Part shown: positions 1 through 54,092 of the stretch, piece by piece
How positions within the stretch are numbered: the stretch's first letter is position 1
Layout: every line of letters begins with the position of its first letter
Source: Sporopachydermia quercuum
Lineage: Eukaryota
NCBI GenBank assembly: GCA_001599295.1
Contig: BCGN01000008.1
Coordinates: forward strand, 310,001 to 374,000
Direction: 5' to 3'
DNA: 64,000 nt
The notes under the pieces: model-generated
Told to the model about the DNA's origin: nothing
Database searches by the model: none
What the model saw: only the letters and a program-made list of their open reading frames with translations
Translations under genes and position numbers: made by a program

Positions 1-32
1 ATTAGTAGCGAAGAAAACGATGACATTATAAT

Positions 33-540
33 TCACAATCTCACTCGAAATGAATATATAATACAATGTATAGATATATATGATAGATAGAAATCGAAAT
101 CTATAGAATTTACACTATTGAAGGTCGTTTGAAACAAGATGAGTTTCATTCGGCCCAGATCATATCGTAGCATTGAGAGATACTTCAGCTCCAATAAGTT
201 AGCTATATCCATCAAGATCTTTCACTTTTAGATAAGCAATGTAAATCTAACATATCCCAAATTCTTGAGTATTTCAACCAATCAATGTGTTTCTTAACAA
301 TATTATTATGAGGGATGATTAAGAGATGATGTTTCTCAATCGCTATAACCATCAATGATAAGATAAATCGGCAAAGTTCAGTATACGTGAATTCGATGAG
401 CACAATAAGCTCAAGAGTACCTTCGTTTCTTCACTTGACAACCTTTGTGAATCTCTACGGTTTACTACCAGAATAACTATTTCTGTCAACTTACGTAGCT
501 AAGCATGGAATTCAAGAGTTAGGATTCGCACAAACCCCAT
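33..540 (-). pseudogene. Possible degraded PHO85-cyclin (PCL)-like gene remnant
   Basis: Minus-strand fragments in different frames read FVRILT..EIVILVVNR, ELCRFILSLMVIA, WLKYSRIWDMLDL and NLLELKYLSMLRYDL, in cyclin-box order. They are interrupted by a TAG at 501-499 and by frameshifts. Similarity judged by eye only. Confidence 0.25.
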
Positions 541-1455
541 CATTGATTATTACAAGAAATAACTTGAAGTCGTTCCACTTTAAACTCCCGTCTCTACCCT
601 GACTCTCATAGACACTACTAGTCGAGTTGATTCATTACTACCGGACAGAATCACGTACTCATCAAGTCTCCTATGTTCTTTCTTTCTTCTCTTCCATTGT
701 GTTCATTCACTACGATGCCTCATTTATCGCTTGCATACTCTCAACACGTTGAAGAAGATAATGCGCTTTACGCTTCTGTATATACTTAAGATTTACAATA
801 GTTTTATCTGTAACATTTGCAATACAGTTTTAGTTCTTTATTAAGTTTTGAACTTATATTCAAGCTTAACCTAATATTAAGGTCTCGTTCCGGTATACCA
901 CAAAAAATCAAACCTTCACTACCTATCCTTATCAATCTGGTTAAGCTAAGGTACAGTTTTTTCAATATCTTTATTTTACTAACTTTAATTTAAGTTTGAA
1001 TTCTAACGGACGGTGAAGGAAACCCTGTTTATATCAATATGCGAGTTGAATATTCTACTTTCTACATCTCTTATAAACCACCGCTTCTACTATTTACTAC
1101 TTGGGGCATATATATCTTGGATTATCGGGATATCAACGAAGCAAGTGAATTATCAAATGAAAAATAGAAAGTTATAGTTGAAAATTTCGCTGTGAGAAAT
1201 GCTATAAAAAGAAATTAATATCCAAATAAAGTGAAAAAATATCTGACTGAATTGGGTAACTTTATAGATTTCTTATAATCTTTCATCCTGATTCTCAACA
1301 CTATAGTGAACTATCAGCAATACCTAACAGCAAATCGTACTCTCTCATCCCATACCTAGGTGGATTTATCATAGTCAGGCTGCGCTATACTGTACTGTAC
1401 AGCTGATAAATATCAAAATCAATTGTCAGATATATTGTCACAAGTTCTTCTCATC

Positions 1456-3054
1456 ATGTCGTCAACAGATCAGAAACCTATACCTGTTGATGTAGAGAAA
1501 ACTCTCTACGTAACCAGTGAGAACTCACTAAGTAATTCAGTTTCAAACTCAACACTAGAAAATGATTTTCTCGCTGCTGAAAATGTTGATTTGGTTGATT
1601 TAAATCATAAGGATAAAGTATTATCTGCCAAAATGTACCTAGTGAATAACGCTCTTGATGAGATTGGATTTACCTGGTATCACTTCAAAATCTTCTGTTT
1701 ATCAGGTATGGGATACGCTGTGGATTCTCAGTTAACAATGTTACAGAGTTTTACTTTAACAGCGGTGAAAAATGAATTTGGGGTTGCGTTTCCAGTATCC
1801 GGTATTATGTTATACTCAGGCTTATTAGTTGGTGCATTACTATGGGGTTTCAGTGCTGATATAATTGGTAGAAAGTTTGCATTTAATACTTCATTAATAT
1901 TTTCTGCTGTATTTGGTTTGATAGTTGGTGGTATGCCAAATTATGCTGGTTATTGTGTTATGGTTTTCTTGACTTCTGCCGGTTCCGGTGGTAATTTGGT
2001 TTTGGACACAGCCGTGTTCTTAGAATATTTACCATTTAAATATCACTGGTTAATGGTTTTCTATGCTTGCTGGTGGGGTATCGGTCAAACAATAGCCGTT
2101 CTTCTGACATGGCCTTTCTTGGCTAACTATTCTTGTGAAAGTGCTGAAAACTGTACTAAATCTAATAATATGGGTTGGAGATACACTTGGATTACAAATT
2201 GTGCCTTGGTGTTTGTTATTGCAATGGCGAGAATCACTGTCATCAAATTTGAGGAAACTCCCAAATTCTTAGTTGGTAAAGGTGAAGATGAAGAAATTGT
2301 TAGGATCTTACAAGGAGTTGCCGAAAAGTACAACCGTAAATGTTCATTGACTGTTGAAAGCTTAGTAAGATGTGGAGATACTAACAACAAAGATCTTGAG
2401 CATAATACTAGATCATTTTCTGGTATTAGGAAGATAATTAAGCATCATTTATCAATTTTATTTTCATCAAAAAAGGTAGCAAGATCAACGATTATGATTA
2501 TTGGTTCATGGACATTATTAGGTATTGCTTATCCTTTATATTATGTTTTCTTACCACAATATTTAGCATCAACGGGTGCAAAATTTGGAGAAAGCAGTAT
2601 ATCAATAACTTATAGAAATTTAACTATTACAAATTTCGTTAGTACTTTTGGCCCAATTATTGCTTCAGGACTATTATTCATACCAAAAGTTGGTCAAAGA
2701 GCTGTGATGGTTATAGGTGCATTGATTACTATGACATTTTTATTTGCTTATACAGCAGTTAGAAATCAAGCACAAAATGTTGGTTTTACCTCGGCCGTGA
2801 ACATTGCGTGCTATATATATTATGGTGTCTTGTATGCTTATACACCAGAAGTTTTACCTTCTGCTGCTAGAAATACTGGTAATTCTATTGCGATGGCTTC
2901 GACAAGATTAATGGGTTGCATGGCTACTATTATTGGTTATTATGCTGACACCACAACTTCAGTTCCAATTTACATATGCGCAGCTGTTTTCGGTGGTTGT
3001 GGTGTACTGGCTATCTTCTTACCCTTTGAACCTTCTGGAAAGAGAACTGTGTAA
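1456..3054 (+). CDS. MFS transporter (SV2/SVOP-like, sugar-porter-related fungal family), substrate unknown
   Basis: About 12 hydrophobic segments, MFS motif A (GFSADIIGRK), ETPKFL and YTPEVLPSAARNTG signatures. First ATG is at 1456; the track starts at a TTG at 1423. Confidence 0.9.
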   Translation: MSSTDQKPIPVDVEKTLYVTSENSLSNSVSNSTLENDFLAAENVDLVDLNHKDKVLSAKMYLVNNALDEIGFTWYHFKIFCLSGMGYAVDSQLTMLQSFTLTAVKNEFGVAFPVSGIMLYSGLLVGALLWGFSADIIGRKFAFNTSLIFSAVFGLIVGGMPNYAGYCVMVFLTSAGSGGNLVLDTAVFLEYLPFKYHWLMVFYACWWGIGQTIAVLLTWPFLANYSCESAENCTKSNNMGWRYTWITNCALVFVIAMARITVIKFEETPKFLVGKGEDEEIVRILQGVAEKYNRKCSLTVESLVRCGDTNNKDLEHNTRSFSGIRKIIKHHLSILFSSKKVARSTIMIIGSWTLLGIAYPLYYVFLPQYLASTGAKFGESSISITYRNLTITNFVSTFGPIIASGLLFIPKVGQRAVMVIGALITMTFLFAYTAVRNQAQNVGFTSAVNIACYIYYGVLYAYTPEVLPSAARNTGNSIAMASTRLMGCMATIIGYYADTTTSVPIYICAAVFGGCGVLAIFLPFEPSGKRTV

Positions 3055-4979
3055 AGATAGATAGTAGAAAGAAGCTTAAATTAAAATATTCATCACATTT
3101 CGCACTATCACCAGGTGTCATCTCTCTTTGTCGATAATGATGATGCTTGGTTTATTTACATTTTGTATAAATTTGTTCTATTCTGGTTGTTGTGTTTAGT
3201 TTTATTTTTATTCGTTGTTGTGTTTTTATTATAATCAATAGAAATGAATTCATTCATTCAGACTTCTTATGTTCGGTAGATACTTAGAGAATTTTCAAAA
3301 AGCTTATAACTGAAATTTTCTGATACACAGTGGGAATAAGCATCAAATTTCTCTATACTCATTGATCGCTTTATGAGCAAATTCTTTATTCAGAGCGTTG
3401 TGTAAGTAGCTCAAGCAACTTGAATTGTCAATGAAGCCATAAGATAGATGCAAGCAACGCAATGATTTGGAAACATTAATATCCTGTTCCCAATTTTCAG
3501 ATTAGAAATGAGCAGGTATCAATGATCTTTGAAACATTCAAGTACTATCACGAACTAGGAATAGTAAATATTCTGGCACACGAGTTCCAGGTGTTTTCTC
3601 TCAACTGATTGACACAGTAAACAATGAGGTATATTCACTGGTTCCGCTATGCATATAGTACTTTCACTATTATTAGATGAGATGCTCACTATCAAAAATT
3701 ACCTGATACAGTACTATTATAATTCATCTGTGTCTGATCCGCACACAGCAGGCTAATTTCGGACGAGTTGAATAACAATACAAGCAATTAGTGACTTGGC
3801 TTTTCAATTACGATACACCGATAAATACTTTTTCCTGATTTGTTATTAAACTTCGTATCTCATGCATTTCTTTAATTCTTCCTTGGATTCTAACTCGTCC
3901 TGCTTTGTCAAAGAAATTGCATTGTTCTTCTCAATTATTCATTTCGTAATTACTTTTATGGAAGTTAAGTTGAGCATAGAAATCATATCAGAACATAGCT
4001 GTACTAATTGGAACCAACATCCATGACCGGAAACTCAACAGTGGAACGAAGCAAATTGATGAGCAAAAGCTCATCAATTATGCTATCATGCTATCAACNG
4101 ATGGGAGTTAAGATACTATAAGATTTCAACTCATCAATGGAATGGCTGATAAGTAAATGAGGATTTGTAGCTCGGCCGAGAGGTATTAGAATTATATACT
4201 TAGCTGTCTCAGTTTAACGTTTGAGAATGAAAATAAGCTTTGCTTAAACTCTTTATCAAGTGAATGGTAGTAGAGGAAATGATAACGTCGAGGAAACATA
4301 CACTTCAACCTGGAAATTATCATAGAACTTTTGCTTTAATTATTAACCTGCGAAATTCTAGTATTCTAACAGTTTTTTTGTTCGAATAAGTTGTGTTTTA
4401 TTTTGATCTAGAATTAAAGGAAACCAGAATACACTTCGTGGCTTGGATTATGGTATCGATTAAGTTAGAGATTAGTACTAAACTTTGTTTGTTCTTCCTA
4501 AAAACCTCGTTTCAGAATTAAACTCAAACTTAAAGACAATTGACTTATTTAGATAAAACTCATCCGAACTAATTGTTTTCCAGAAATTATATCAATCTAT
4601 GAATATATTTCTTTAAACGGATTAATTATTCTATCCGCAGCTTAATAAAATATATATAAAGTAGACGTTATCGGTTACATCAAAAGGGGTAGAATCATCT
4701 AGACCGAATCGTCGCCTGCTATTCATTACTTGTAAAAGGTATCTAGAGAACTGACAATTCGACAGTAGGGGTAACATGGTATTGAAACGATAAATATAAA
4801 TAATGATTATTCTGCTTGAGCTGTCTTAAATTTAATTCACCAAAATAAATACAACATCTAAGGAAATATCCAGCAACTGATCAGGATTTGAGCTATTCTT
4901 GAAGCATCCAAACAACTATCAAGTCGCAACATTTACAATTTACAAAGCTTATAAACTCNCAAATTTGAAATAACTAAAA

Positions 4980-6053
4980 ATGGCTGCCACTGCTGTTGAT
5001 ACCAGGGTCGAGATTCCTGACTATAAGAAGTTTGATAATATTTCACTTCTTCCCAGTCAAAACAACGATACTTATAAATCAGTTGAGTTCAATCCTGATA
5101 TTCATTTGAACTACAAGGCTCATAGTANTAAAATTACAATGGAACAAATGGGCTACCCTTCTGATATTGGAATCAGTGAGATTGGTGGGAGTCTTCCTTT
5201 TCAATTGTTTACTAAGGAAGCAGTTGAAATCATGAGACAAGAAGTACTCCAAAAGGATATTATTGAAGCATATGGTTATGATAAAACCCCTGCTGGTAGA
5301 GACGACAATTTGGCATTTTCAGTAAGAGGATATACCCATAAAACTCCGTTTACCTATCAAGCATGGACTCATCCTTTAACAACTAAAGCAGTTAGTGACA
5401 TGGCGGGAGTGGAATTAGAAATTGTTATGGATTTTGAGGTAGCACATTGCAACATTGATTTACGTATTGATGAGGGCAAGGACGAGGAATCAACTAAATT
5501 GAAGGGTAAAGATGAAATGCCAGCAATTGTTGGTTGGCATAATGATTCTTATCCATTTGTGTGCGTCTTGATGTTATCTGATACTGAAAATATGGTTGGG
5601 GGTGAAACTTACGTCAAGAACTCCAATGGAGAAATTACAACTATTCCTGGTCCAAAGAAAGGTCATGCTTGTGTATTACAGGGCAGATATTTACTTCATT
5701 TGGCCCCCAGACCCGTTTACTACAAGGACAGATTTACTATGGTTACATCTTATCGTCCCAAGAAACCTTTTTTCAAGGACGAAACTGTTTTAACAACTGT
5801 TAGACCTGAAAACCAAAATCCTCCTTATCTTTACAGTGAGTTCTACACAGATTATGTTAAGTATAAAGTTGATTACTTATCTGAGCATTTAGACATAATT
5901 AAGAAAGAGGTTACTGAAAATTATGAGAGAGATCATAAATTTGAAAAATTTGAGACTATGAAGAAGATGCAATACGTTAGAAACGTCATTACAGCTATGT
6001 TAAAGGAAATGGTTGTCCCTGGTGAAGAGGAACAATATAAGGAATACATTTGA
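4980..6053 (+). CDS. Uncharacterised Fe(II)/2-oxoglutarate-dependent oxygenase-like protein
   Basis: 357 aa ORF with HxD in WHNDSYPFVCVLMLSD (His codon 5538), GGET strand motif, distal His (LLHLA, 5697) and a downstream Arg (DRFTMVTSYR, 5730), as in the double-stranded beta-helix fold. Confidence 0.75.
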   Translation: MAATAVDTRVEIPDYKKFDNISLLPSQNNDTYKSVEFNPDIHLNYKAHSXKITMEQMGYPSDIGISEIGGSLPFQLFTKEAVEIMRQEVLQKDIIEAYGYDKTPAGRDDNLAFSVRGYTHKTPFTYQAWTHPLTTKAVSDMAGVELEIVMDFEVAHCNIDLRIDEGKDEESTKLKGKDEMPAIVGWHNDSYPFVCVLMLSDTENMVGGETYVKNSNGEITTIPGPKKGHACVLQGRYLLHLAPRPVYYKDRFTMVTSYRPKKPFFKDETVLTTVRPENQNPPYLYSEFYTDYVKYKVDYLSEHLDIIKKEVTENYERDHKFEKFETMKKMQYVRNVITAMLKEMVVPGEEEQYKEYI

Positions 6054-6592
6054 AGGGGGAGAAGAAAAGAAAAGAAAAACCGGAGAGTAAGAACTGAATT
6101 TTATATAGTTGATCTTAAAATTTGATATTTTCATTGAAATTATATAGCTAATTAAAAAGAATATGCTCTAGTCTGTTATTTTGTCAGTAGTTTTAGAAGA
6201 AGATACTACTCAAAACATATTACTTTATCGCCAGTTTTATGAGTTAATTCAATAGAGTAACCAATATAGAAAAGAATGCTTTGCAACAATGCTTTAACTT
6301 CGCAAAGAAATATGTACTACCTGGTTATTTGTTGTGGTAATTTGAGTATTATCACAATTAAAAGTAGGATTTGAATACCACTTTTACTGATCATCCAAAA
6401 CTACCCAAGAAAATAGGTAGAATATTCTGCTACAATCAATCAAATGTTAATATGTTTAGAATTTGTATAAATAACCTCTTTCTATTAATAATCCTAACAC
6501 TCCCTTTATTCTTCCTTCCCATTCCCTTCCCTTCCATTTCCTGTATGAATAATTCTATGTAACTTCACCTATACGTTGATACTGTCGATTTC

Positions 6593-9232
6593 CTAGCTGT
6601 GATTCTCTAAACTAAACAACCTTTTAACTTCCANCGATGTCCATTCAGCATATTTGTAATATGAGTTTTCCTCAATAAAAGTTTTCAACTCTTTGTCTGA
6701 AAATAAATCAGATAGCTCCTCAAAATCATTATCAAAACTTATATCATAAAGGCCTCCTTTTTTCTTTCTTTTCTTCCCTAAGTTTTCATCGTCATCAGCA
6801 GTAACAGCAACATTATCATTGTCGTCATTGTTGTCCTCAATGTCATTATTCTCATCATCAGACTCGAATCTACTACCATTATTTTCTTTACTTCTTGATT
6901 TGCAGTTTTTCTTGGCTTTTGTTGATTTTTTATAAAATTCAGAAGTATCAGGATAGCTGTAATTTGTTAATGGTGTTTCTAATTCAATGACTGAATTACT
7001 GTTTAGTATAACATCCGTTAAAACAAGCTTTTCCCATGGAAAATTGTCAGTAGACAAATCCTCATTCGATACAATCGACCAAACTCGTTCTAGTAATCCA
7101 TTACACCTTGTTGCCAATATACAATTTATATCAAATCTTTTTATGCAATATTTCGCTATGCTAATATGGTCGATTAGCTGTTCAATGAATACAAAAGAGG
7201 ATGAATCTTTCGTAACAGCTGTACTTGATCTTAATCTCAACACTTCAAACGCTAATACGATTGAACAAGTAGCCATTGCTTCAATAATAACCTGCGAGAT
7301 TAAAAAAAAAGATGAAAATTCCCTTGAGCTAATGGTTGTTATAATATCTTTACTTAGTTGAATAGTGCTATCTTTCAATTCATAATAATCTGATTCCTCC
7401 TCATTATTTATCTTATTCATTTTAGTGCCATATTTAATTGATATTTCGTGGACATATATCTTCAAAAACTCAAACTTTAGTAGCACTCTCATATAAAGTA
7501 CTTGTTCTTGACTTAATAATGGTTGTAAATATTCAAACTTATCCCATAATGTGATAACATCATCTCTATAGTGATCAACTACTGACATTGATTCAACCTG
7601 TAAATACTCATCATTGTAATTGCTGATAGAATGTACTAATCTAATTTTATAAAGTCCAAATTGTAATCTCAGAAGCACAATGTTGTTGGAAACATTCATT
7701 TTTTTTAATTCCTCAACCGATTTTGTTTCAACATATTCATAAGGAATTGAAGTTTTGAAAGAATTGAAAGAAGAGATGAATCGTGGATGTTTATTATAGT
7801 TTCTAAGATCATGGCCAATCAACGTCCACCAGATTGCTTTATACGAGTTTAGTTTCTTATTTGGAATTCTGTGGCTATTATAAGTACTGTTCTGTTTCTT
7901 ATCACATGTTTCATTTCCACTATCATCTTCGATATCTTCCACCTCCACTTCATTATCGTCACCATAATCAGGGAGTTGATCGAGCTTTAGTGCTCTTGCA
8001 ATATTAATCATGACTCCTAACTGATTGTAGGAAACATTAGGACTCATAAACATATGACAAAAATTAGTCATTATGCAATAAATCTTCAAAGTTTCAATGG
8101 ATAAAAACCTTGCATACTGAATCTTATATAGACATTCAACTGCTGATCCTCTTAAAATAGTAGCTAAGTTTAATAAGAATTTGTAAGTAACTGGTAAGTT
8201 ACTAGCAATATCTTTCAAAGAGAAACTTATACCTGAACATAAGATCGCGTACCATAAAGCAGTAAATCTGAATATCTCTATAGGTCGATCAAAACTACTA
8301 ACATGTCTTTGCATATACCCTTGCTGACAGAACAAATTATAGTCTTTGATAAATTCTTTATAATCAATAATGCAAGAGATTAAAGGAATATGCTCAAAGG
8401 CCTTTGAAATCGTTAAATCACTAAGCTCTTTGGTGATTCTTTTCAAGAAATAGGGGGCTAGAAGTTCCCAAATTGTTCCTTCAGCATTATTTCCATTCAT
8501 AAAGGCACTCTTGACGAAATTGAATTTTTCACTGTTTAAGGTATTCCATAGAACATAATCGTGTTCGAATCTCTCTTGGAAAGAAGCAGTTATTGAATTG
8601 TCATCAGCAAGCGTTGTGATCAATCCTCTCCAAAGATTATGAGCCGAATGAATAATTAAATCTAACTCACATTTCCTGACTATTATAGAATGTGNTAATG
8701 GTCTGTTTTCATAAAGCTTCAATTTTTGTTTGAGAATTAATATTTCATTCTGTAGCTGTCGGTTGTCATTTTGTAGTTGAACAACATTTGACCTATCGTA
8801 ATACAATTCAGTCGATCTACCCTCTGTATTATCATTGATACAGCTAATACTTCTACTTCTACTCATCTCTTGACATCTGCTATTGATATTAAAATGACTA
8901 CTTGACAACTGGGAGTATAATGCTCTTGCAGCACTATTGGTAGTAGTGTGTTGGTAGTTGTACTGGGGACCAGTTTCGCTACTAGGTAGGTTACAGATAA
9001 GACCTTTGGCAATAACAATTTCTCGTGAGCAAAGATGACTGACACCCTTAGCGATACACTTGTCACAAGGGATCTGTTTGTTGCATTTGATTTTCTTCTT
9101 TTTACAAGAAACACAAGTTTTAGGAGGACGCTGTGTTGCCCGTAACGTGGTAAGAGGAATAGGGTGGGGTTTCGGATTAGGATTACTCATTGACCTTGGG
9201 ATATATTCAGATGTTGCAGTGATGCAGTCCAT
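6593..9232 (-). CDS. Zn(II)2Cys6 fungal transcription factor
   Basis: CVSCKKKKIKCNKQIPCDKCIAKGVSHLC binuclear cluster, coiled coil, middle homology region (WWTL..D), acidic C-terminus with KKRKKK. First ATG is at 9232. Confidence 0.9.
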   Translation of the reverse strand: MDCITATSEYIPRSMSNPNPKPHPIPLTTLRATQRPPKTCVSCKKKKIKCNKQIPCDKCIAKGVSHLCSREIVIAKGLICNLPSSETGPQYNYQHTTTNSAARALYSQLSSSHFNINSRCQEMSRSRSISCINDNTEGRSTELYYDRSNVVQLQNDNRQLQNEILILKQKLKLYENRPLXHSIIVRKCELDLIIHSAHNLWRGLITTLADDNSITASFQERFEHDYVLWNTLNSEKFNFVKSAFMNGNNAEGTIWELLAPYFLKRITKELSDLTISKAFEHIPLISCIIDYKEFIKDYNLFCQQGYMQRHVSSFDRPIEIFRFTALWYAILCSGISFSLKDIASNLPVTYKFLLNLATILRGSAVECLYKIQYARFLSIETLKIYCIMTNFCHMFMSPNVSYNQLGVMINIARALKLDQLPDYGDDNEVEVEDIEDDSGNETCDKKQNSTYNSHRIPNKKLNSYKAIWWTLIGHDLRNYNKHPRFISSFNSFKTSIPYEYVETKSVEELKKMNVSNNIVLLRLQFGLYKIRLVHSISNYNDEYLQVESMSVVDHYRDDVITLWDKFEYLQPLLSQEQVLYMRVLLKFEFLKIYVHEISIKYGTKMNKINNEEESDYYELKDSTIQLSKDIITTISSREFSSFFLISQVIIEAMATCSIVLAFEVLRLRSSTAVTKDSSSFVFIEQLIDHISIAKYCIKRFDINCILATRCNGLLERVWSIVSNEDLSTDNFPWEKLVLTDVILNSNSVIELETPLTNYSYPDTSEFYKKSTKAKKNCKSRSKENNGSRFESDDENNDIEDNNDDNDNVAVTADDDENLGKKRKKKGGLYDISFDNDFEELSDLFSDKELKTFIEENSYYKYAEWTSXEVKRLFSLENHS

Positions 9233-10770
9233 GTTGATCTCTTGCAATAAGTTGCTATATCACATAATAAAAAGCAATGTAATTCTGGTCGAATAGTAAC
9301 GATGTCTCAATGAAACTGCTGATAGTATATCCGCGAGAACTCATCAACCTCCGAAGTTCTAACTCTTGGACGGGTGCTCTTAGTCACAATCAAACAACCA
9401 CTGAATTTCAAATATCCTCTCGATGACCCCTCACTGATTGCTTCTGGCACAAGAAGAATGTACCCTTCTTATAATTAATCGAGCAGTATTATTAAGAGCT
9501 CAATAATTATTGATAATGATAGATAAATGATTTCGAGAGTCAATGACAAGATGGTAGGGTGCTCCAGGAAAACTCAACCTTTGCCGTTTAAGTTNGAAAA
9601 GTAGGTTAAAGTTTGTATGACTTTAGCATTTGAGTTATACCTTATTTTTATGTTGTAGCTTATCAGTAGTTTCGACCTGAAGATCCCATTAATTGGTAGA
9701 GCGGCACCTTAGAGTCAATACAACACTAACCAGGTAGCAAGATAGATGGAATAAAATTTACCGATTCTATTTTTTTTTTGAATAAATAAATTTTGGTCCC
9801 TTAATCTTATTCCAGGTACAGATGGAAACATTCAGACAATGTAACTTTTAGCTTTAACAATGTTCCATCACTTTAAACTTATTATCCATATTAGGCAAGA
9901 TTTTGACTCTCCGCTTAGTTAATTCGGTATCTAATACCTTATCTTCAACTGTATTTCGCCTCAAGGCATAAATTCTCTTAAAACTGACAACCGATCCGAT
10001 CAAATCCTGTATTTCTGCCAACTTTAGTCTTACGTTGCTTTGAACTGCGAGTCTGTTAAGGGTCTTCAGAATTGACGAAGTGTAAATTAGTATGATATAA
10101 ACTTGTCAGTTCGGTGATGCTTTTATATGCTGTTTTGAGTTGATATGGTGCATAGTCATTTGTTCATTAGACTAAAAGTAACCTATAGATTGTCGTAGAC
10201 TTTATTTGTAAGCTGTTCTAATGTACTATTTAATCGTCGATTCAATATACCGAATGAGCTTTGTATTACAAAAAAGACGACCTCGATGCCGGCAAATCTG
10301 GATGATGAGAAGGAAATTCAAAGACCATGGTCTTCTCCCTTCGTCAACTTATGCCTAACAGAAGATTTCAAACCTATAAAATAGTCCGTATAGTAAATTG
10401 TCTACTCGTCCTTTCGAGTCTCCTCAGGCACATTTAATATCAATCAAAACAAAAAATAAAATATATCTCATCATTCAATAATGTGAAAATGAAAAAACAG
10501 GGATAAACAAGAATTCTCTCAATCAATATCTCTTGCATCCTTTGATTTCACCGAGCACACTGAACGCTTCCATCCATCCTTCATATTTCCCATTCTTATC
10601 CTCCTTTCACTTCTGATCCAACCCTATTGATTAGTAGCTTCATCACAAAAATCACCTTTATTTCTTCCTGTCTTCTTATTCATCACTCCTACTTGACCTT
10701 CATACCCGTCTGATATCTCAATCTCTTCGAGTCACATGACGCTGAGTAGCACGGTCTAATTCTAATTTGT

Positions 10771-10800
10771 ATAACCGACGAATGCCATCGATAACCGAAA
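10771..10800 (+). promoter_or_regulatory. 10-bp-phased CCG array (Aro80/Zn2Cys6-type site)
   Basis: ATAACCGACG-AATGCCATCG-ATAACCGAAA, with CCG/CCA/CCG at 10775, 10785 and 10795, in the divergent TF/decarboxylase promoter. Confidence 0.4.
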
Positions 10801-11190
10801 CTTAAACTCAAAATAAAAAACCCATCAGACATTNCTCCTACTACAACTCTCTTTGAAATTATTGTGTCATGACAGCCACATTTAACATTACGAGATAATC
10901 ACAGAATATTCGAATATGACAACTGCAAGCTCATCAATGGATATTTATGTAACAACGTATAAGGAACCATTTTTCATGTCAAGTAAGCACTACCATNGAC
11001 AATACCGTCAATTACTCTTGGAGGTACCTCATATAAACACGATAACCCTTAATGTGAAGGATGTGTAACTCTATTAATTAACGACGTATCATTAAAATAG
11101 CTTAATTTTACTTCTGAAAGTAAATCTCCATTATATTATTTACACTTTAAAAGGGAATTCGAATGATCAATAATGATAACTCAATCAGAG

Positions 11191-11197
11191 TGAGTCA
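11191..11197. promoter_or_regulatory. Gcn4/AP-1-type site TGAGTCA
   Basis: Perfect consensus about 460 bp upstream of the decarboxylase ATG. Confidence 0.35.
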
Positions 11198-11657
11198 CCC
11201 AATAGCAAACAAGTCACCATTAGTTACTGAACGCTTGATCCCTAGTTTATATATAATCCGATTCAGCTACAATTGAGAAAACAATCCGTTCCTTATTCGT
11301 GGATTGTCATTGACCTTGACATTTTAATGAAACGGAAATTAAAAAAGTTATCGTTTGTAAACGGTNAGTGAAATCCATTCGTTGTATATAAGGGTGAGCT
11401 TTTGTCTTCATGAATTCTTTTTTACAGTCTTCTCCTTGTTTTATATTTTAATCTAAGAGAGAAATACTGTTTGTTTAGTATACTAAATAAGTACACAGGA
11501 TGTATGATTAGAAACTAGACGATAGCTATTGAGTATTAAATAATCTATTTGACTGAAATAGTTTCTATCGTGTTCGCTGATATAATACAAGTAGTTTACT
11601 CATTCTTGCAATGTCATATAGCAGACATATCTACCATCAAAGGAAATAATAACAACA

Positions 11658-13580
11658 ATGGTATCTGGTAATACAAAAATGAAAATAGCAGAGTATCTTA
11701 CTCTGAGAATCAAACAACTGGGTATAAATCATGTCTTCGGTGTACCTGGGGATTTCAACCTACCACTATTGGATTTCATTTCCCCAGAGCATGGTTTGAA
11801 CTGGGTTGGCAATTGTAATGAATTGAACGCATCTTATGCCGCAGATGGATATGCAAGAACCAAAGGTTTACCAGGTGTAATGGTCACTACTTTCAATGTT
11901 GGTGAGCTGTCTGCCTTAAATGGCATAGTCGGTGCCTACAATGAATATGTTCCAATTCTTCATATTGTAGGGGTACCCAACGAGTATCTTTCTCATTTCA
12001 CTTTACCTATTCATCATTCCATTGGAAGTTCAGACGGATTAGTTCAGAATGATATATCTCATAAAATTGCTGGTTTAGTATCAGTGGCTTCCGAATTATT
12101 AAAGTCAGATGATGGTTTTGATAATTGCAAGGCAATTGATTCTGTTATAACTTCTATTATGCAATTTTCACGACCTGGGTACATTTTCATCCCAACCAAT
12201 TTGATCTTGGCAGAAGTAACGGTGACCACAGATTTGAGTTCCTCATTGAAGTTGACATCTGATTTTGATAACGACAATAATACTATTAGTCTTGCCATGC
12301 ATGAAGATAAACCTGAAGGATGGAACGAAGCTCACAAGCATATCTTAGCGCTTGTTGATGATAGTGTTAAACCAGTTCTAATAGTTGATGCGTTAGCCTC
12401 TAGGTTTGACTCAAATAAACTGGTAAATATCTTTGCCGAGAAGCTGAAAATACCTATAGTATCCACAACATTAGGAAGAGGAATTNTAGATGAAGACCTA
12501 CCTTTATACAGAGGAATATATGCTGGCGCCCTATCGTCACCAAACGTGGTTCAACTTATAGGCCAAAGCGATCTAATTATACATTTGGGTCCAATGGTTA
12601 CCGATTTGAACACAGGGGCTTTCTCTTTCAAATATGCTAACAAAACTTGCTTATTTATTCACCCGGATCATGTTTCTATATCCTATAAATGCAACGGGAG
12701 TCAATCAGAGGTTGCTTACTATGAAACGCATTTCAGAGAAGTACTTTCAAGAACAGTTAATGGATTACAACCAAAGATCATTGCAAACAATTGGGACATA
12801 GAAGAAGCTCTATTGATTGAATCGCCAAAAGATCAACCCGATCACGAATTGGCAAAGGAAAATCCAGAGATTCTAACACAGATAACTAATTGCATCAGCA
12901 AGTATTTAGCACATGCAGTTAAAGAGGGTGATTCCTTTGAACGAATAATTTTTATTCAGGAATCTGGATCGATGCAATTTGCAACTCCTGACATCAAATT
13001 TCCTCCAAATACAAGCTTTATCAGTCAAGGCTATTACGCTTCTATTGGTTACTCTTTGCCAGCAGCTTTAGGTGCTTATTTGGCTGACGACAAAGCGCTA
13101 GTGTTCTTATTGATTGGTGATGGTTCAGCACAAATTTCTTTCCAGGAACTATCAAGAATCGTTCCCTTGGATTCTTCAAGAATGAAAATTGTCCTGGTCA
13201 ATAATAGTGGTTATACCATAGAGAGGGCGCTATGGATAAAAGGTTACCGTAGTTATTATAATGATATCCCCAACTGGGATTGGGTTAAACTAGTAAATGC
13301 ATTTGGCGGCGAAGCTTTGAAAGTGAACGCAGATGGTTTAGAAAAGGCACTTGCTACTCAAAATTTACTCTTCACTGAACTGGTTATTCCAATGGAACTT
13401 CAGTCGTGGAGAATTAATGCGTTAGTTTCAGAAATGAATAAAGTGAACAAAGCGTTGAAAAATCATTACGAAGTTGACAAACTGAACGAGAAACGCCTTG
13501 CTGCTGCTAATGACAACACTTTAGTCATTATGAAAAGAAGAAAATTTGAGACTACTTGGGAACGGCTGGTTCTATTGTAG
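11658..13580 (+). CDS. ThDP-dependent 2-oxoacid decarboxylase, Aro10 (phenylpyruvate decarboxylase)-like
   Basis: VFGVPGDFNL, NELNASYAADGYAR, HH pair, and GDGSAQ...NNSGYTIER ThDP motif. ESGSMQF...ISQGYYASIGYSLPAALG resembles Aro10 more than Pdc1. Confidence 0.88.
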   Translation: MVSGNTKMKIAEYLTLRIKQLGINHVFGVPGDFNLPLLDFISPEHGLNWVGNCNELNASYAADGYARTKGLPGVMVTTFNVGELSALNGIVGAYNEYVPILHIVGVPNEYLSHFTLPIHHSIGSSDGLVQNDISHKIAGLVSVASELLKSDDGFDNCKAIDSVITSIMQFSRPGYIFIPTNLILAEVTVTTDLSSSLKLTSDFDNDNNTISLAMHEDKPEGWNEAHKHILALVDDSVKPVLIVDALASRFDSNKLVNIFAEKLKIPIVSTTLGRGIXDEDLPLYRGIYAGALSSPNVVQLIGQSDLIIHLGPMVTDLNTGAFSFKYANKTCLFIHPDHVSISYKCNGSQSEVAYYETHFREVLSRTVNGLQPKIIANNWDIEEALLIESPKDQPDHELAKENPEILTQITNCISKYLAHAVKEGDSFERIIFIQESGSMQFATPDIKFPPNTSFISQGYYASIGYSLPAALGAYLADDKALVFLLIGDGSAQISFQELSRIVPLDSSRMKIVLVNNSGYTIERALWIKGYRSYYNDIPNWDWVKLVNAFGGEALKVNADGLEKALATQNLLFTELVIPMELQSWRINALVSEMNKVNKALKNHYEVDKLNEKRLAAANDNTLVIMKRRKFETTWERLVLL

Positions 13581-48529: not shown

Positions 48530-51500
48530 TTTCAAAAAGTATGAGAAAGCTTTAACACACTTAAATATCCCTAGGCCTATAAGCTGCCTCACGTCTTGAT
48601 ATGCAATTTTTGGTTTGAAGTTGAGCTCGTATAATTAAAAGTGTTTTGCTACTTCCCGCTNCCTTCTTTTTGATTGTTATTCTTCTCGTTGATAGAATTT
48701 GTACTTGACTTCACTCTGGAGCTGAATCAAACCACTACAATTTGGATTTGAAACAGGAGTAGTTCTCCAATAGTATCAAAATCTCTTATTTGATATAATC
48801 AAAAACGAATTTTCAATTCTAGTTTTTTGAAAGTGCTTCTTGATTCTTACAACTGGATCTTTTATCGCCGGAAAGCCTTTTGTTTGTCCAACTTGCTGAT
48901 GGTTTCTGGTTTTTCTTTCCTAGCACGACAGAGCTTTGTGGAAACAGGGGTATATATTGCGCTCAAGGGAAGAAACAATATTTGATATATTGTTTTTTTC
49001 TTACATCAAATAACAATATATCAAGGTTACTGAATGTTGCGTTCACTCTGTTACAAGGGGCAGACAAACATGACAGCCATTAGCAGTAGCACAAAAAAAA
49101 GGGAGGTGGTTGAACAATCTCTAAGTTTCATCTTGTGAATGTACGTGAAAATGGTTTGTGTGGTGCTTTTTGTCTGACCCAATAAATGGGGTATACGGAA
49201 GGTTTTGAGTTTAAGGTTTTCATACTGGTACCTACATATTTTGCCTGGGCTTTCATCGATGGAAGTGACTCTTGCTTAATCAACTGCAGCGAAATGAAAG
49301 TTTGAAATAGTTGATGTTCGGAGAATATTATTAACGAGAAAAATGATGAAAAACGGTAGGTTCCTATTGAACGAACCAATGGAGTCGATTTCCTTTGGTT
49401 TAAATTTAATGAATATATGATGATGAGACACCATCGAGAAGAAAAGGAGCTATTTTCTCATTCTGTTTGGATATCTATATAGGGTTCTCCCTCTTCCAAA
49501 AGCAGCATTGATCAACCAATAGCCCAGGAACCACAAGTGAATAAAAATGTACAGTACCTTTTATTCACGATAGAGTTGAATCCCGTTATATTTAGACCAA
49601 GTTTGAACTTTATTCTAAGGTCCTTCATAGAACAAAGTTTCTTTGCAAAAAAGTTACACCTTTTTGTCGTCACAAGGCTTAATCACTAAACTGTGACATT
49701 AAAAGGATATAAGTATGCTGTGACAGGACAGGACTCAGTAATAAATATAGGAGAGTACGGATATTGTTGAGTAACAGATGTTTTTCGAGGTTTAGAAAAC
49801 TGAATAGATATCTCAAAAGGAATTTGAAGGAATAGTTTCTATGTCTGATAAATTTGTAGATGAGCAGATTTGGAACCACAAAAAAAGGGAGGGAGAAAAG
49901 TTTGCGTTGTTTCAATCCCGATATCGCATCCAGATTGTTGCCCACGACTAAGTCATTTCAGGTACCAAAGTCAAAGTCAAAGTCAGGAACAGGCAAAAGC
50001 TTGAAAAATCGCATGAAACTTCAATGAACAGGTGAATTGTTACAGTGCTAATTTGCTGACTAGTCGTACGTAATTGACATGCTCTACTAACGTCTAGACT
50101 GTTTATAAGCTCATCAACCTCTCTGTCTAACCAAAATACTAAATCTTTCTTAAGCTATATCAAGGCAAGTACCGTGATTTCATTGTAGGTTTCGTTGGGC
50201 TGCCTCTGCATTTCAGTAAACCTCTTTGTTGTACCAGGCACTAAGAAGGCAGACAACTATATCATATAAGTCATACATTACACTCACTAGTAAAAATGTT
50301 GGTTAAATGTTGAAGTTCTTCACATTGTTAATCTTATAAAAAGAAAGATAAACATAGAACTCTGGTAAATTTTTTATGTTTAATTATTATACAAAGGACA
50401 ACAACACATGATGACGCGAGTTACTAGGTTAGAGTGTCACTACTATGTATGCTTTCTGCATGTCTGGATTACAGATCCCAATGTTGTTGTATTGCAAAAT
50501 CACAAGAATTATTGAGCGGGCGTGAATGTTTATCGACATCATTCATAATTTAAAACAAACAACAACAGAATTATTATTGCACTCTTACACAGTAAACACT
50601 TCACCATATATGCTTGTATATTTAAAGATACAACAGAAAAATCACCTTTCGCTAAGATGTGAGTATCAAAATGCTTTGTTTGATTATCTGAAGAAGCAGA
50701 AATCACTTGTTTAAGGCACAGGAACTTTTGAAAAGAACTAATTAGGAGATAAACGCAACAATTATTGTGACAATTGTCACATATTATTTCCCGTCTTTGT
50801 CACGACAGTTCCAGTTCTGTCTTAAAATCCCGAAATGTTTACCATAGCATCGCCTTGGATGTGGTACAGTACATATGTAATCATATTACCATTTTAATTG
50901 TCTTCTCTACTTCAAGTTCGAAGGTGGGATAACTGGAATAGTGCCTTCTTACTGTTCGGCTTTTCAAAATCCTGATCCTAGATCGTCACAGGTAAAGTAA
51001 TATCTTATCTTGAAATTTCGTTAGATTACGATTTATTGTCATCATCTAAACCCTAGTATGAAATGCCACTCACTTTCACGAAACGGGCTTGCAACCAGTA
51101 CCTCACCTATCTATGAATGATCGACAGGTTGAATCACTAGAGAAAAATACAGTTTGAAATCTTGCAGTAAAACTGGTTTCAAACTGGATTTTTGGATCTC
51201 TTTAGTTACGATCTCAATAAATTGATAAGATTGAAATAATTTATTTATGGAAGTGAAAAGAATATGAGAACAAGTTGTAGGTGAATTGCATTCACTTTAT
51301 TAGTGGCTCCATGCATTCAACTGCACTAATCACCTGGGTGAGAAGTTATCTAAAAATTACATTCGCTTACAAATCGATGCCAGCACTTAGTATGGTCTAG
51401 AAACAAATACTATGTTTCTAAACTTCAATTTTCATGCAAGTCAATTTAGCTTTATAGTAACCTTAGTGGAGTTTTTAGCTTCAGCTTTAAAATTGACTGG

Positions 51501-52698
51501 AAAGTACTGTACGTCCAATCTTAGGTAGCACTTGCGGGAAAACATATGTGAATCTCTACTTGATTCATTTGTTATATCAGTTGAAGGTAGATGGCACTTA
51601 TTCAATGTGAAAGCAATAATAATAAAGAGATTAGTATGGAGAAAGAAGAAAAAGTGCAAGTGTAAGTATTGCGAGATTCCAAAAATGCAAAGGCGTCTTA
51701 AGAAGTATTTCTGTTTTTGCAGAAATGACTGAAAACTTGGGCTCATCAATATCTCTGAACAAAAAGAGTTCTGCTTTTAAGAAACATGATAGAAGGTTCA
51801 AAAGCTTCATTATGCATATTGGTGCATAATTATGCATGCAACCTAACTATACTTTGGGGAAAAGTAAGGATGGTTTTATTATGAACTCGAGCAAGATTTC
51901 GGTTAAAGTTGTTGATATACATTTAATTGTAAATAAACTTTAAATGACTAATTGGGGTAAATAAATTATGATCTGAATACTGACATTTATGTATATATCT
52001 ACAGCTATATCTGCCACACAAGTTGACATCAATACTTCGCAAGAGAGCCTCACAATGGAGACGACTATTGCATATATACATATATTGATATCAGAGTGAT
52101 GGGAATACAATTTGCATCACAGAGTGACGATAGATTGGAAGATTGGGATTCAACTCTTTATTGCCCACTTGAAGAGAAAAATGTAGGAGGGGAGACTGGC
52201 ATTATCCTATTCACGCTCAACAGTTTTATCCAATGAATTCCACTAGTCTGGATGTTACATCCATATTATTGTAAGCATAATATCAGAAATTGTAGCGAAT
52301 CACCGTTGTGTAGATAATGAACAAGGCAGAGAAAGCTTAACTTGAAAATTGTTTTACGAATCAGATGGTATCGAAAACATTCGAACGTACAATAGTGCAC
52401 ACTGCTGATTNCGAGATCACCTATAGATTCTCCAGAACATTTTAGTAAGTTATTGACAACGAGATGCACTGGTATCTCGACATGTCAAAAAGAATACCCA
52501 AAAGGCCAATGTGAGTATACTTTTACATAGATTGGGCTAACACTACTCTTGGTGTAAAAATTAATTGGCCATATCATATTACCATTATGGATACAACACC
52601 TAATCAATAATAAAGAAAATAATTATTATTGAGTCGATAGCTACAGATACAACTCACTAGATGAAATTAAAGGAGTAGACAATAATACGAAGTGCAGT

Positions 52699-53169
52699 TT
52701 AGTTTCCACCATGCTAGTAAGAGACCCGTTAGTAATCAGAAACACCAATTTCTTAATTGCCACCACACACACCGATAAGTACATACTTGTTCTTGGTGAG
52801 CTTCAATAGTGTCATTTTCGGCCATTTCTAACTATTATTTATGTTAGTATCTTGGTTATACTGGTGTAAATGAATAAAAATCTTTATCTCAAGTGGAGTC
52901 GCATAGTAGATTCAAGAGGTAACACTTACATCTTCAGGAGTATCTGAATCTTGAATTCTTTCACCATCATATAGAAAACGCAAACTCTTCTTTGATTTGC
53001 TCTGTCTTTCGCAGAAAGCATCAATAAGTTTCTTCAATGGTGTCGTTCTCTTGATCTTGAAAAACACTTCATTTGTTCCGTCAGACACCTTCAAGTTGAT
53101 GTGAGTAGCCGCTCCTTCAGGCTTGATATCGGGCTTAGTATCTGGTGTATCGTTGGGTGCTTCACTCAT
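52699..53169 (-). CDS. SMT3: SUMO (3 exons)
   Basis: Exons 53169-52930, 52831-52787 and 52713-52699. [26 protein letters not shown]; ends EAHQEQHGGN. Confidence 0.95.
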
Positions 53170-54092
53170 ATTGAAAACTTTCTATGGTCCGCCAATATTG
53201 TACAGTTGGAGATTTGAATCATTGGTGTATTTATTTTTTCTTCTTATCGAAGGCGTGATGTGATACTGAAGTAGAAGTATGATAGTAAATGTTCCTTTAA
53301 ACTCATAACATTTGGTTTTCTTTCTTCACACCCATTCATTTCAAGACTTATTGATTATAGATTACGTGATCTTTTATTTTGCTTCATAATAAGAAATACN
53401 TTCAACGTCAAATTCTTCTATCCTCGAAATCGGCTAATATACAACACCGCCATTTGCAATATATTCATTTTTCACTCTGAAATGGCCCTCGTTCTATTCC
53501 AAGCTCTAGTATACTAATCTCCAACTTTTCATTTTCCGCTTCCACTTTTCCACCAACTTATTTTACCCGCACTATAAACTTCATATAGAGTCTCACATAT
53601 ACCCCCTGGGCCGAAATGGAATATTAAATTGTTCTCGCGTTGTTTGGGAGATATTTCACGTGATAATTACTTACTTTTTAGGTATGTGATTATTTGTTTA
53701 CAGCCAAAAACCATCAACATCATAACAAACAGAAATATCTCGATATTGAAATTAAACGAAGCCGAACTTTGTGTTGATAGGACTCATTTTTTAAGAAAGA
53801 CCACTTTTTCATATTAACTAACTAAAGGAAATCAAGAATTAGGAAGATTATGAAAGCAACAGGCTATCAAGTGTATCATTAATAGTGTAACAACAGACCC
53901 ACCCTACTAAGAATCCCAACCTATTCACTCATTTATTCATTCGCTTTACTATTGGGATTAGGAGTAACAAGCCGTACAAACAAAGACTAGATCGCTGAGC
54001 TTGAACAGATCACGGAACAACAGTATAATATTGAAGCCGCTTTTATTTATAATTGTTACCAGTAAAGTCTTTTCAATTGAACTTCTTTGATA

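What the first reader, a model, noticed from the sequence alone, without database searches (positions are those of the whole stretch)
1456..13580. Candidate undescribed four-gene catabolic cluster: MFS importer, Fe/2OG oxygenase, Zn2Cys6 regulator and Aro10-like decarboxylase
Seen: four adjacent genes without coding introns, in a block with long promoter spacers (~1.9 kb before the oxygenase, 2.4 kb between TF and decarboxylase), unlike the compact intron-rich housekeeping region to the right. The TF and decarboxylase share a divergent promoter, and motifs recur across the promoters (CTCATCAA, CCGATAA/TAACCG, GATAAG). Known: transporter + enzymes + Zn-cluster TF is the usual layout of fungal nutrient-assimilation clusters. 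Inference: the cluster imports a modified amino acid or amine, oxidises it (hydroxylation or demethylation), and decarboxylates the resulting 2-oxoacid in an Ehrlich-like step. I recognise no described pathway with this gene set, and the substrate cannot be read from the sequence.
Basis: partly seen in the sequence, partly recalled or inferred. Interest (0 to 1): 0.8.

Follow-up and report, generated by a model that had tools for sequence, protein, structure and literature searches.

The report
Yeast nitrogen-scavenging oxygenase-transporter gene module
A yeast carries two copies of a regulator-oxygenase-transporter gene trio that probably imports and oxidises an unknown amino-acid-like nitrogen source, which would give a first functional lead for a widespread unstudied fungal enzyme family, while the neighbouring decarboxylase may not belong to it.

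Summary
The four intact ORFs are as described, but the supported unit is three genes. Transporter, oxygenase and Zn2Cys6 regulator recur together at a second, subtelomeric site in this genome (74/65/46% identical, GC3 outlier) with no decarboxylase. Transporter and oxygenase are also consecutive genes in four Yarrowia species, and lie two genes apart, around an HpcH aldolase, in 1 of 59 metagenome locus groups. They are unlinked in most other fungi checked. The oxygenase belongs to the uncharacterised fungal YALI0B19030 family. Its predicted fold is closest to BesD/Hal free-amino-acid oxygenases and it has a hydroxylase-type HxD motif. Published Yarrowia RNA-seq shows the oxygenase and its adjacent transporter co-induced about 10-13-fold by nitrogen limitation. 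They diverge in a gzf3 mutant (oxygenase up 20-fold, transporters down). CGATAA (GATA-type) is the top motif shared by both copies' promoters; CTCATC is enriched only in this copy. The decarboxylase is a divergent, catalytically intact Aro10-type paralogue, found beside no other oxygenase locus examined. Best reading: a nitrogen-scavenging import-and-hydroxylate module for an unknown amino-acid-like acid; the Ehrlich-like step is unproven. The scan's notes held no earlier finding on similar DNA.

The parts
1456..3054 (+). MFS transporter, 532 aa, of the Fgr2 / PB1E7.08c (SV2-related) fungal family; core member
   Evidence: Pfam MFS_1; 120 listed hits at 48-54% identity, some named FGR2 or PB1E7.08c; best PDB sequences SV2A/B; 74% paralogue at C4:16739-18343
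4980..6053 (+). Fe(II)/2-oxoglutarate oxygenase, 357 aa, YALI0B19030 family; H187-x-D189...H240, R251; BesD/Hal-like fold plus two C-terminal helices; core member
   Evidence: 65% paralogue at C4:13713-14771
6593..9232 (-). Zn2Cys6 transcription factor, 879 aa (C40-C68 cluster), convergent with the oxygenase in both copies; putative pathway regulator (inferred)
   Evidence: Pfam Zn_clus; 46% paralogue at C4:11035-13263; no outside homologue at E<=0.001 among 6039 candidates
11658..13580 (+). TPP-dependent 2-oxoacid decarboxylase, 640 aa, divergent Aro10-type paralogue (one of four PDC-family genes found in the genome); catalytic D32, E55, H119, H120, E522 and GDGS motif kept; membership in the module unproven
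4054..4079 (.). Perfect 11-bp inverted repeat with 4-bp spacer built from two CTCATCAA half-sites, about 900 bp upstream of the oxygenase; candidate binding site of a dimeric factor (inferred)
   Evidence: I12; looser GATGAG-N2-14-CTCATC occurs 17 times genome-wide vs 8 for the control
724..4793 (.). CGATAA (GATA-type) sites at 724, 1122, 3132, 3819, 4668, 4788 upstream of transporter and oxygenase
   Evidence: 6 vs 1.3 expected, p=0.004 uncorrected
9233..11657 (.). Divergent TF|decarboxylase spacer: CGATAA at 10789, 11040, 11348; CTCATCAA at 9340, 10930; five TGACTC/GAGTCA sites incl. a perfect TGAGTCA at 11191 (Gcn4-like, name recalled)
   Evidence: (TGACTC 5 vs 0.5 expected)

Best explanation
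The working unit is three genes under nitrogen catabolite control. When preferred nitrogen runs out, GATA factors (and, inferred, the adjacent Zn2Cys6 protein sensing the substrate) switch on the transporter and the oxygenase. The transporter imports a small carboxylate-bearing nitrogen compound, most likely a modified basic or aliphatic amino acid that ordinary permeases and transaminases handle poorly. The Fe/2OG enzyme holds the carboxylate on R116 and hydroxylates a side-chain C-H. Nitrogen is then released, either by collapse of a carbinolamine or by ordinary transamination. The remaining (hydroxy-)2-oxoacid is cleaved by whatever lyase the lineage has: an HpcH aldolase in L090, and unlinked or optional decarboxylases in yeasts. 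The Aro10-type gene here is a lineage-specific neighbour, dispensable for the module. Shown: gene content, duplication, linkage, fold class, metal triad; nitrogen regulation only for the Yarrowia orthologues. Inferred: substrate class, role of R116, role of the TF, downstream steps.
For: Three-gene copy at C4 without decarboxylase in C4:1-40000. Its GC3 is 0.44-0.52 vs 0.24-0.37 for the other 31 ORFs measured, and 65-79% of four-fold sites differ, so the trio evolved or moved as a block. Consecutive accessions MFS-MFS-oxygenase in Y. lipolytica (CAG83334/5/6) and three other Yarrowia species. Oxygenase-HpcH aldolase-MFS in L090/L093. N-limitation logFC +3.75 (oxygenase) and +3.27 (adjacent MFS) in PMC5478895 Data Set S1. 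Oxygenase +4.3/+4.7 log2 in the gzf3 repressor mutant, same direction as a urea transporter and a urea amidolyase (PMC5311114). CGATAA ranks first of 1565 6-mers for joint enrichment in both copies (9 vs 2.3; 7 vs 1.7). Fold: Foldseek rank 1 HalD; VIA rank 1 HalB, Z 15.2, rmsd 3.3, 203 aligned, next 13.5. Atlas look-alikes carry HalD. Weak PF10014 hits in 27 of 62 homologues. R116 in 101 of 110, E153 in 103 of 110 homologues.
Against: The pair is unlinked in most fungi checked: 1 of 59 locus groups (1 of 18 with at least 5 kb on both sides) has the transporter; not adjacent in Kuraishia, S. coipomensis, C. tropicalis (one paralogue checked), C. albicans or Geotrichum. In 18 of 59 groups the oxygenase sits beside a RING-finger gene. 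In the Yarrowia gzf3 mutant on ammonium both transporters fall (-3.4, -3.3 log2) while the oxygenase rises, and the second transporter is not in the N-limitation list. Fungal amino-acid uptake normally uses APC permeases, not SV2-like MFS (established knowledge, recalled). Identity to Hal enzymes is only 12-16%, and many other 2OG oxygenases score Z 11-13. The TF has no outside homologue, and no TF homologue lies near any outside locus. Motif p-values are uncorrected.
Confidence: 0.45

Rival explanations
1. One reading: at this locus the Aro10-type paralogue has been recruited and decarboxylates the hydroxylated 2-oxoacid in an Ehrlich-like step, co-regulated through the shared divergent promoter.
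For: Directly adjacent and divergent to the TF. It is an extra, strongly diverged paralogue (35% to its closest genomic relative) with intact catalytic residues, as expected for a specialised copy. Its spacer holds 2 CTCATCAA and 3 CGATAA sites. The query with the L090 aldolase found nothing in this genome and the HpcH family search gave only two pyruvate kinases, so a decarboxylase could fill the 2-oxoacid-lyase slot that the aldolase fills in L090.
Against: Absent from the C4 copy, from 80 of 80 loci and from the Yarrowia locus. Motif counts in its spacer alone are not significant (p=0.14 and 0.08). Gcn4-like sites suggest separate control. The Yarrowia gene I take for Aro10 (recalled) moves only +0.58 under N limitation.
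Confidence: 0.3
2. The substrate is not an amino acid but another small N-containing acid or cation (pyridine carboxylate, betaine, vitamin derivative), as in the Aspergillus hxn cluster; the oxygenase hydroxylates or N-demethylates it.
For: The transporter's best models are organic-cation, aromatic-acid and SV2 carriers, all far below cut-off. [quoted passage not shown]
Against: HxnY is a DIOX_N-type enzyme and HxnR a Cys2His2 factor; neither fits here. That paper says yeast hxn clusters never include hxnZ. The best fold match is to amino-acid enzymes.
Confidence: 0.12
3. No shared pathway: contingency genes that gather in gene-poor islands and subtelomeres and respond generically to starvation; the oxygenase has a separate, conserved cellular role.
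For: Unlinked in most fungi and in housekeeping synteny in many loci; discordant gzf3 response; about a sixth of Yarrowia genes respond to N limitation.
Against: The genome search found just two close transporter and two oxygenase genes, and both pairs are adjacent. The trio stayed together through an inversion of the transporter. Linkage recurs in Yarrowia and L090, whose oxygenases lie in other parts of the tree.
Confidence: 0.08
4. Organophosphorus scavenging: an Fgr2-type carrier imports a phosphonate or phosphate ester that the oxygenase opens.
For: C. albicans FGR2 is 64.5-fold down in pho4 without phosphate yet is a poor Pi importer (PMC11343460 passages).
Against: No CACGTG and one CACGTT in the three promoters. 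The C. albicans oxygenase orf19.7002 is absent from the Pho4/Pi lists searched. Yarrowia PHO89 is flat where the transporters change 40-fold. The Yarrowia pair follows nitrogen.
Confidence: 0.05

Closest known systems
BesD/HalA/HalB/HalD radical amino-acid halogenases and the Hydrox lysine hydroxylase (PF23169)
   Same: Best structural match in two searches; aligned range 34-276 to HalB 5-248 reaches the C-terminal lid region; an invariant Arg ends a beta-hairpin, like carboxylate-binding HalB Arg83 (PMC10041140 passages; equivalence inferred)
   Different: Fungal, not bacterial (no relative in two scans of 185,579 prokaryote genomes); HxD, so hydroxylase-type; 12-16% identity; no PF23169 hit for this protein; two extra long C-terminal helices; catabolic rather than biosynthetic context
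PF10014 2OG-Fe_Oxy_2 family (includes isoleucine dioxygenase IDO; membership of IDO recalled)
   Same: Weak hit over the HxD region (E 0.0029, 17.8 bits); best PDB sequence hits of the wide profile are BsmA-domain proteins 9dq0/8jms at E 0.14-0.17
   Different: Below the 23.1-bit cut-off; not the top fold match
Candida albicans Fgr2 / S. pombe PB1E7.08c SV2-related MFS family
   Same: Hits named FGR2 at 50-52% identity over nearly full length
   Different: FGR2 is Pho4-dependent and unlinked to the oxygenase in C. albicans; the window protein is on its own branch; the Yarrowia oxygenase-adjacent member follows nitrogen
Aspergillus nidulans hxn nicotinate cluster
   Same: Nitrogen-repressed cluster with MFS transporters, a 2OG dioxygenase and a pathway regulator
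   Different: Different oxygenase family, Cys2His2 regulator, none of the other hxn enzymes here; kinship of HxnZ to this transporter is recalled and untested
Aro10 / Ehrlich-pathway 2-oxoacid decarboxylases
   Same: Full catalytic set; shares Q440, Y460 and a C-terminal WR motif with the C5 paralogue rather than the two PDC1-like genes (Aro10 signature recalled)
   Different: Extra paralogue at 35% identity with a G-to-N change in the conserved TTFGVGE motif, an internal deletion of about 12-20 residues near the C-terminus and a C-terminal extension; ARO10 is not normally clustered with an oxygenase (recalled)
Fungal assimilation clusters of the MAL/DAL type (permease + enzyme + Zn2Cys6)
   Same: Same layout, GATA sites, subtelomeric second copy
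   Different: Enzyme family and substrate undescribed in the papers searched

Membership tests
Fe(II)/2OG oxygenase superfamily | HxD/E...H facial triad and 2OG-binding Arg | tested here: met
   H187 110/110, D189 109/110, H240 109/110, R251 109/110
Fe(II)/2OG oxygenase superfamily | Double-stranded beta-helix fold | tested here: met
   Model pLDDT 87; top rows are almost all 2OG oxygenases
YALI0B19030 family (PANTHER name PTHR41677 recalled) | Full-length homology to YALI0B19030p | tested here: met
   P0090 43% identity, E 1e-62; its cluster holds YALI0B19030p
BesD/Hal halogenases | HxG/A motif leaving a halide site | tested here: not met
   HxD in 109 of 110
BesD/Hal family (incl. hydroxylases) | PF23169 score above cut-off | tested here: not met
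   No hit for this protein; 2 of 62 and 4 of 62 homologues hit weakly, best E 5.2e-05
BesD/Hal family (incl. hydroxylases) | Closest solved fold | tested here: met
   Foldseek rank 1 7u6h; VIA rank 1 7u6i Z 15.2, rmsd 3.3, 203 aligned
BesD/Hal family (incl. hydroxylases) | Conserved carboxylate- and amine-binding residues | tested here: inconclusive
   R116, E153, H156, N158 conserved, but no residue-level superposition was available
BesD/Hal family (incl. hydroxylases) | Acts on a free amino acid | not testable with these tools
   needs assay
Fgr2/PB1E7.08c MFS family | Full-length homology to named members | tested here: met
Fgr2/PB1E7.08c MFS family | Pho4-type control / phosphate transport as in C. 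albicans Fgr2 | tested here: inconclusive
   No CACGTG, one CACGTT in the three promoters; transport not testable
hxn nicotinate cluster | Cys2His2 HxnR, DIOX_N-type HxnY and further hxn enzymes | tested here: not met
   Zn2Cys6 regulator, no DIOX_N hit, no such neighbours
Aro10-type decarboxylase | PDC-family catalytic residues and TPP motif | tested here: met
   D32, E55, H119, H120, E522, GDGS...NN
Aro10-type decarboxylase | Groups with Aro10 rather than Pdc1 | tested here: inconclusive
   Closer to the C5 paralogue (320 bits) than to the C3/C1 genes (219+64, 219+74); no named Aro10 sequence was compared, signature recalled
Aro10-type decarboxylase | Activity on aromatic/branched 2-oxoacids | not testable with these tools
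   needs assay
   0 of 80 loci with decarboxylase or TF; C4 copy has three; Yarrowia has two gene types. No close relative's genome was available.
Co-regulated assimilation cluster | Co-induction and TF dependence in this organism | not testable with these tools
   only Yarrowia orthologue data seen

The most novel reading that the evidence does not exclude
The widespread fungal YALI0B19030 family is the eukaryotic branch of the BesD/Hal amino-acid C-H oxygenases and starts an undescribed nitrogen-scavenging route for a modified amino acid. Fgr2-type MFS proteins are its carriers, which would explain why Fgr2 moves phosphate so poorly. Different fungi finish the route with interchangeable 2-oxoacid lyases (a TPP decarboxylase here, an HpcH aldolase in L090), and the regulator-oxygenase-transporter block moves horizontally between yeasts.
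Probability: 0.25. Interest if true: 0.78.

Novelty: new variant of a known kind. Interest (0 to 1): 0.56.

Why it matters
The oxygenase family is widespread in fungi (1190 representatives at 50% identity with E<=0.001, many of them fragments; named hits from yeasts, moulds and basidiomycete-labelled records) and has no function in the papers I could search. Linkage, fold and published expression together turn it into a testable hypothesis in Yarrowia lipolytica, a safe and tractable host. If right, it adds a fungal nitrogen-assimilation route and a source of free-amino-acid hydroxylases, which are sought as biocatalysts, and it suggests a real substrate class for Fgr2-type transporters. The cluster layout itself is ordinary.

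Tried and rejected
Prokaryotic relatives of the oxygenase: two genome-contig scans (16 and 79 pattern matches, none confirmed) and one viral scan found none, so no bacterial operon could name the substrate. Sequence searches of the PDB with the protein and two profiles gave nothing below E 0.1. The PF23169 genome search rang in neither this genome nor the controls and shows nothing. TF: no homologues; its AlphaFold model was poor (pLDDT 38) and was not used; the Atlas query did not complete. RNA runs: no RNA holder listed. Sulfur link (a TauD gene lies near the C4 copy and near the Candida orthologue): orf19.7002 does not change in the sulfur comparisons of PMC13170222 Table S1 (p 0.24-0.99), so rejected. 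Iron (SreA-type ATCWGATA, motif recalled): 0 sites in the window promoters, 1 at C4, so not pursued. An oxygenase (P0010) and a transporter (P0379) share a 6486-bp contig length, but P0379 is not sister to the C. tropicalis transporter and I estimate such a tie arises by chance about one time in eight; not counted. Literature searches with no paper: YALI0B19030; YALI0B19008/18986/19052/18964; PTHR41677; orf19.7002 and C3_05660C in main texts; PICST_30109, DEHA2E00110, CPAR2_806990, HPODL_02117, YALI1B24. 'BesD fungal hydroxylase amino acid homolog' listed 6 papers, none by title or abstract about this family. The library omits most subscription papers. Supplements of PMC4766638 (1,629 characters held) and PMC9317300 had no rows; one file each of PMC5007097 and PMC5311114 could not be searched. 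Scan notes: nothing by sequence, relatives or words.
Full report
Observation. The four ORFs are present, open and at the stated coordinates, with the stated domains; the oxygenase has only a sub-threshold Pfam hit. They carry no sense-strand intron signal, while 15 intron-like elements lie beyond 21 kb. The long spacers are real but not special: five ORF-free stretches of 1.8-2.3 kb occur further right. Of the motifs named, CTCATC(AA) is enriched in this copy (14 sites; better than the best 6-mer in 200 of 200 shuffles; 14 vs 4.5 against genomic non-coding DNA) and forms a perfect inverted repeat at 4054-4079. GATAAG and TAACCG are not enriched.

A second copy defines the unit. Searching the genome gave one close paralogue each for transporter (74%), oxygenase (65%) and regulator (46%), all within C4:11035-18343, about 11-18 kb from a contig end that starts with a tandem repeat. 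Regulator and oxygenase are convergent in both copies; the transporter is inverted. No decarboxylase ORF lies in C4:1-40000; the three other PDC-family genes are on C1, C3 and C5. The C4 genes have GC3 0.44-0.52 against 0.24-0.37 for the other 31 ORFs measured, and 65-79% of four-fold sites differ between copies. The two oxygenases and the two transporters are sisters in FastTree trees (support 1.0). I infer that the trio entered as a block from a related yeast or evolved long under another mutational regime; no donor was found.

Linkage outside this genome. In Y. lipolytica YALI0B18986 (MFS), YALI0B19008 (MFS) and YALI0B19030 (oxygenase) have consecutive accessions, as do their orthologues in three other Yarrowia species; the flanking genes are an unnamed gene and a RhoGAP. 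A metagenome scan confirmed 212 relatives and returned the best 80 loci, which collapse to 59 groups, 18 with at least 5 kb on both sides. One group (L090/L093) has the transporter family (33-39% identity), with an HpcH/HpaI aldolase between it and the oxygenase. None of the 80 has a decarboxylase or a homologue of the regulator. Against general linkage: accessions or tags are far apart in Kuraishia, S. coipomensis, C. tropicalis (one transporter paralogue checked) and C. albicans. Contig lengths differ in eight more genomes present in both top-120 lists (other paralogues may be unlisted). In 18 of 59 groups the oxygenase sits beside a RING-finger gene. For neighbour annotation I scanned 125 of the 149 flanking ORFs of at least 170 aa. 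So the pair is a recurring but minority arrangement.

The oxygenase. It has 377 relatives in the word search and 1190 in the profile search, includes YALI0B19030p, and has no prokaryotic relative in two scans. The triad H187, D189, H240 and R251 are nearly invariant. The model (pLDDT 87) matches BesD/Hal amino-acid halogenases and their hydroxylase best: Foldseek ranks 1, 3, 4, 9, 10 and VIA rank 1 (Z 15.2, rmsd 3.3, 203 aligned; next 13.5). Atlas look-alikes of the C4 paralogue include a cluster with HalD on 17% of members and a bacterial HalD cluster at 0.83. In HalB a beta-hairpin Arg83 binds the substrate carboxylate and the C-terminus forms a lid (PMC10041140, passages). R116 (101 of 110) ends a hairpin strand in the model and the aligned range reaches HalB's lid; the equivalence is inferred, not superposed. 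HxD makes it a hydroxylase type. It works like a BesD-type amino-acid oxygenase in fold; it is not filed as a member, because PF23169 is not reached and identity is 12-16%.

Regulation. CGATAA ranks first of 1565 6-mers for joint enrichment in both copies' promoters (9 vs 2.3; 7 vs 1.7), and C4 has 6 CGATAAG vs 0.24 expected (uncorrected; reading it as a GATA/nitrogen site is established knowledge). Published Yarrowia data agree in part. In PMC5478895 Data Set S1 (rows seen) nitrogen limitation raises the oxygenase by 3.75 and the adjacent transporter by 3.27 log units (adjusted P 1e-6 and 4e-4); the second transporter is not listed. In PMC5311114 (rows and passages seen) deleting the GATA repressor gzf3 raises the oxygenase 4.3-4.7 log2 but lowers both transporters about 3.3-3.4 log2 on ammonium; all three are lower on peptone (-5.5, -5.3 with q 0.2, -2.0). 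No inducer was supplied in either study. In C. albicans FGR2 is Pho4-dependent and a weak Pi carrier, whereas orf19.7002, identified as the oxygenase by its place next to YCK2 and JLP22, is not in the Pho4 lists searched and does not respond to sulfur source.

The decarboxylase. It keeps D32, E55, H119, H120, E522 and the TPP motif and is nearest the C5 paralogue (320 bits; 35% overall), sharing Q440, Y460 and a WR motif that I recall as Aro10-type. It is an extra, diverged copy, which fits specialisation, and no HpcH aldolase was found in this genome with two queries. A decarboxylase and an aldolase both cleave 2-oxoacids, so it may play the part the aldolase plays in L090. But it accompanies no other locus examined, its spacer alone shows no significant excess of the shared motifs, and that spacer has five Gcn4-like sites vs 0.5 expected, none before the oxygenase. 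I put its membership at about one in three.

Verdict. A real, apparently undescribed nitrogen-scavenging module of familiar layout: three genes well supported, the fourth doubtful, substrate unknown but most likely amino-acid-like. Papers seen: passages of PMC8478523, PMC9304392, PMC10041140, PMC11611013, PMC11343460 (plus abstract), PMC2636803, PMC5007097, PMC5311114, PMC5478895, PMC5516929; supplement rows of PMC13170222, PMC5007097, PMC10234403, PMC5311114, PMC5478895; none read whole. The names PTHR41677, Aro10, Gcn4, SreA, IDO-in-PF10014 and the HxnZ kinship are recalled and come from no call. bioRxiv supplements and subscription papers were not visible and could hold a description of this family. 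Interest 0.56; new variant of a known kind.

Noticed in passing
G000:C4:18776-19831 (L017:8776-9831, minus strand): Trichothecene 3-O-acetyltransferase-like (AYT1/Tri101-type) gene right after the C4 transporter, interrupted by an in-frame stop and matching only the second half of the N-terminal Pfam domain; probable pseudogene.
   Followed up: partly
G000:C4:23964-29390 (L018): Dal5-like MFS and a TauD/JLP1-like dioxygenase, with two CACGTG sites upstream of the dioxygenase; looks like a separate sulfonate-use module with host-like GC3.
   Followed up: no
G000:C8:304444-311455 (L020 and window 1-1455): 7 kb without a long ORF upstream of the transporter, holding a 106-codon fragment at 307679-307996 that resembles a BRO1/RIM20 domain (recalled, untested).
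   Followed up: no
L057/L058, L062, L076, L086, L087, L098, L099: A divergent oxygenase paralogue is convergent with an arylamine N-acetyltransferase in 7 locus groups, followed in 5 by an ORF with a Zn2Cys6-like cysteine pattern: possibly a second module for this family.
   Followed up: partly
L100:3411-4970; L054:2412-3122: Ornithine-decarboxylase-family gene directly downstream of the oxygenase in L100, glyoxalase-family gene in L054; single cases.
   Followed up: no
P0131, P0135, P0138, P0140, P0170, P0179, P0185: A long-branched yeast subclade of the oxygenase (one member named from Wickerhamomyces ciferrii) with changes at R116 and around the HxD motif in some members.
   Followed up: no
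P0053, P0078, P0107, P0488: Labels that conflict with the trees or clusters: a Naganishia record beside Meyerozyma, two basidiomycete records inside an ascomycete clade, and an 'Asgard archaeon' transporter inside the C. tropicalis cluster; contamination or transfer.
   Followed up: no
L109, L110: Two pyruvate-kinase-like genes in the genome, one about 11 kb from the start of contig C12.
   Followed up: no
Y. lipolytica YALI0D06930: This decarboxylase drops in both GATA mutants on ammonium (-4.4, -1.7 log2), the same pattern as the two oxygenase-linked transporters, but unlike them stays high on peptone.
   Followed up: no
window 49458-54080 and 59013-61279: Stretches of about 2 kb without ORFs of 100 aa; intron-like signals at 52714-52929 and 53682-53842 suggest small multi-exon genes.
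   Followed up: no
G000:C4:1-90: Contig begins with a tandem 11-bp repeat, probably the telomere unit.
   Followed up: no
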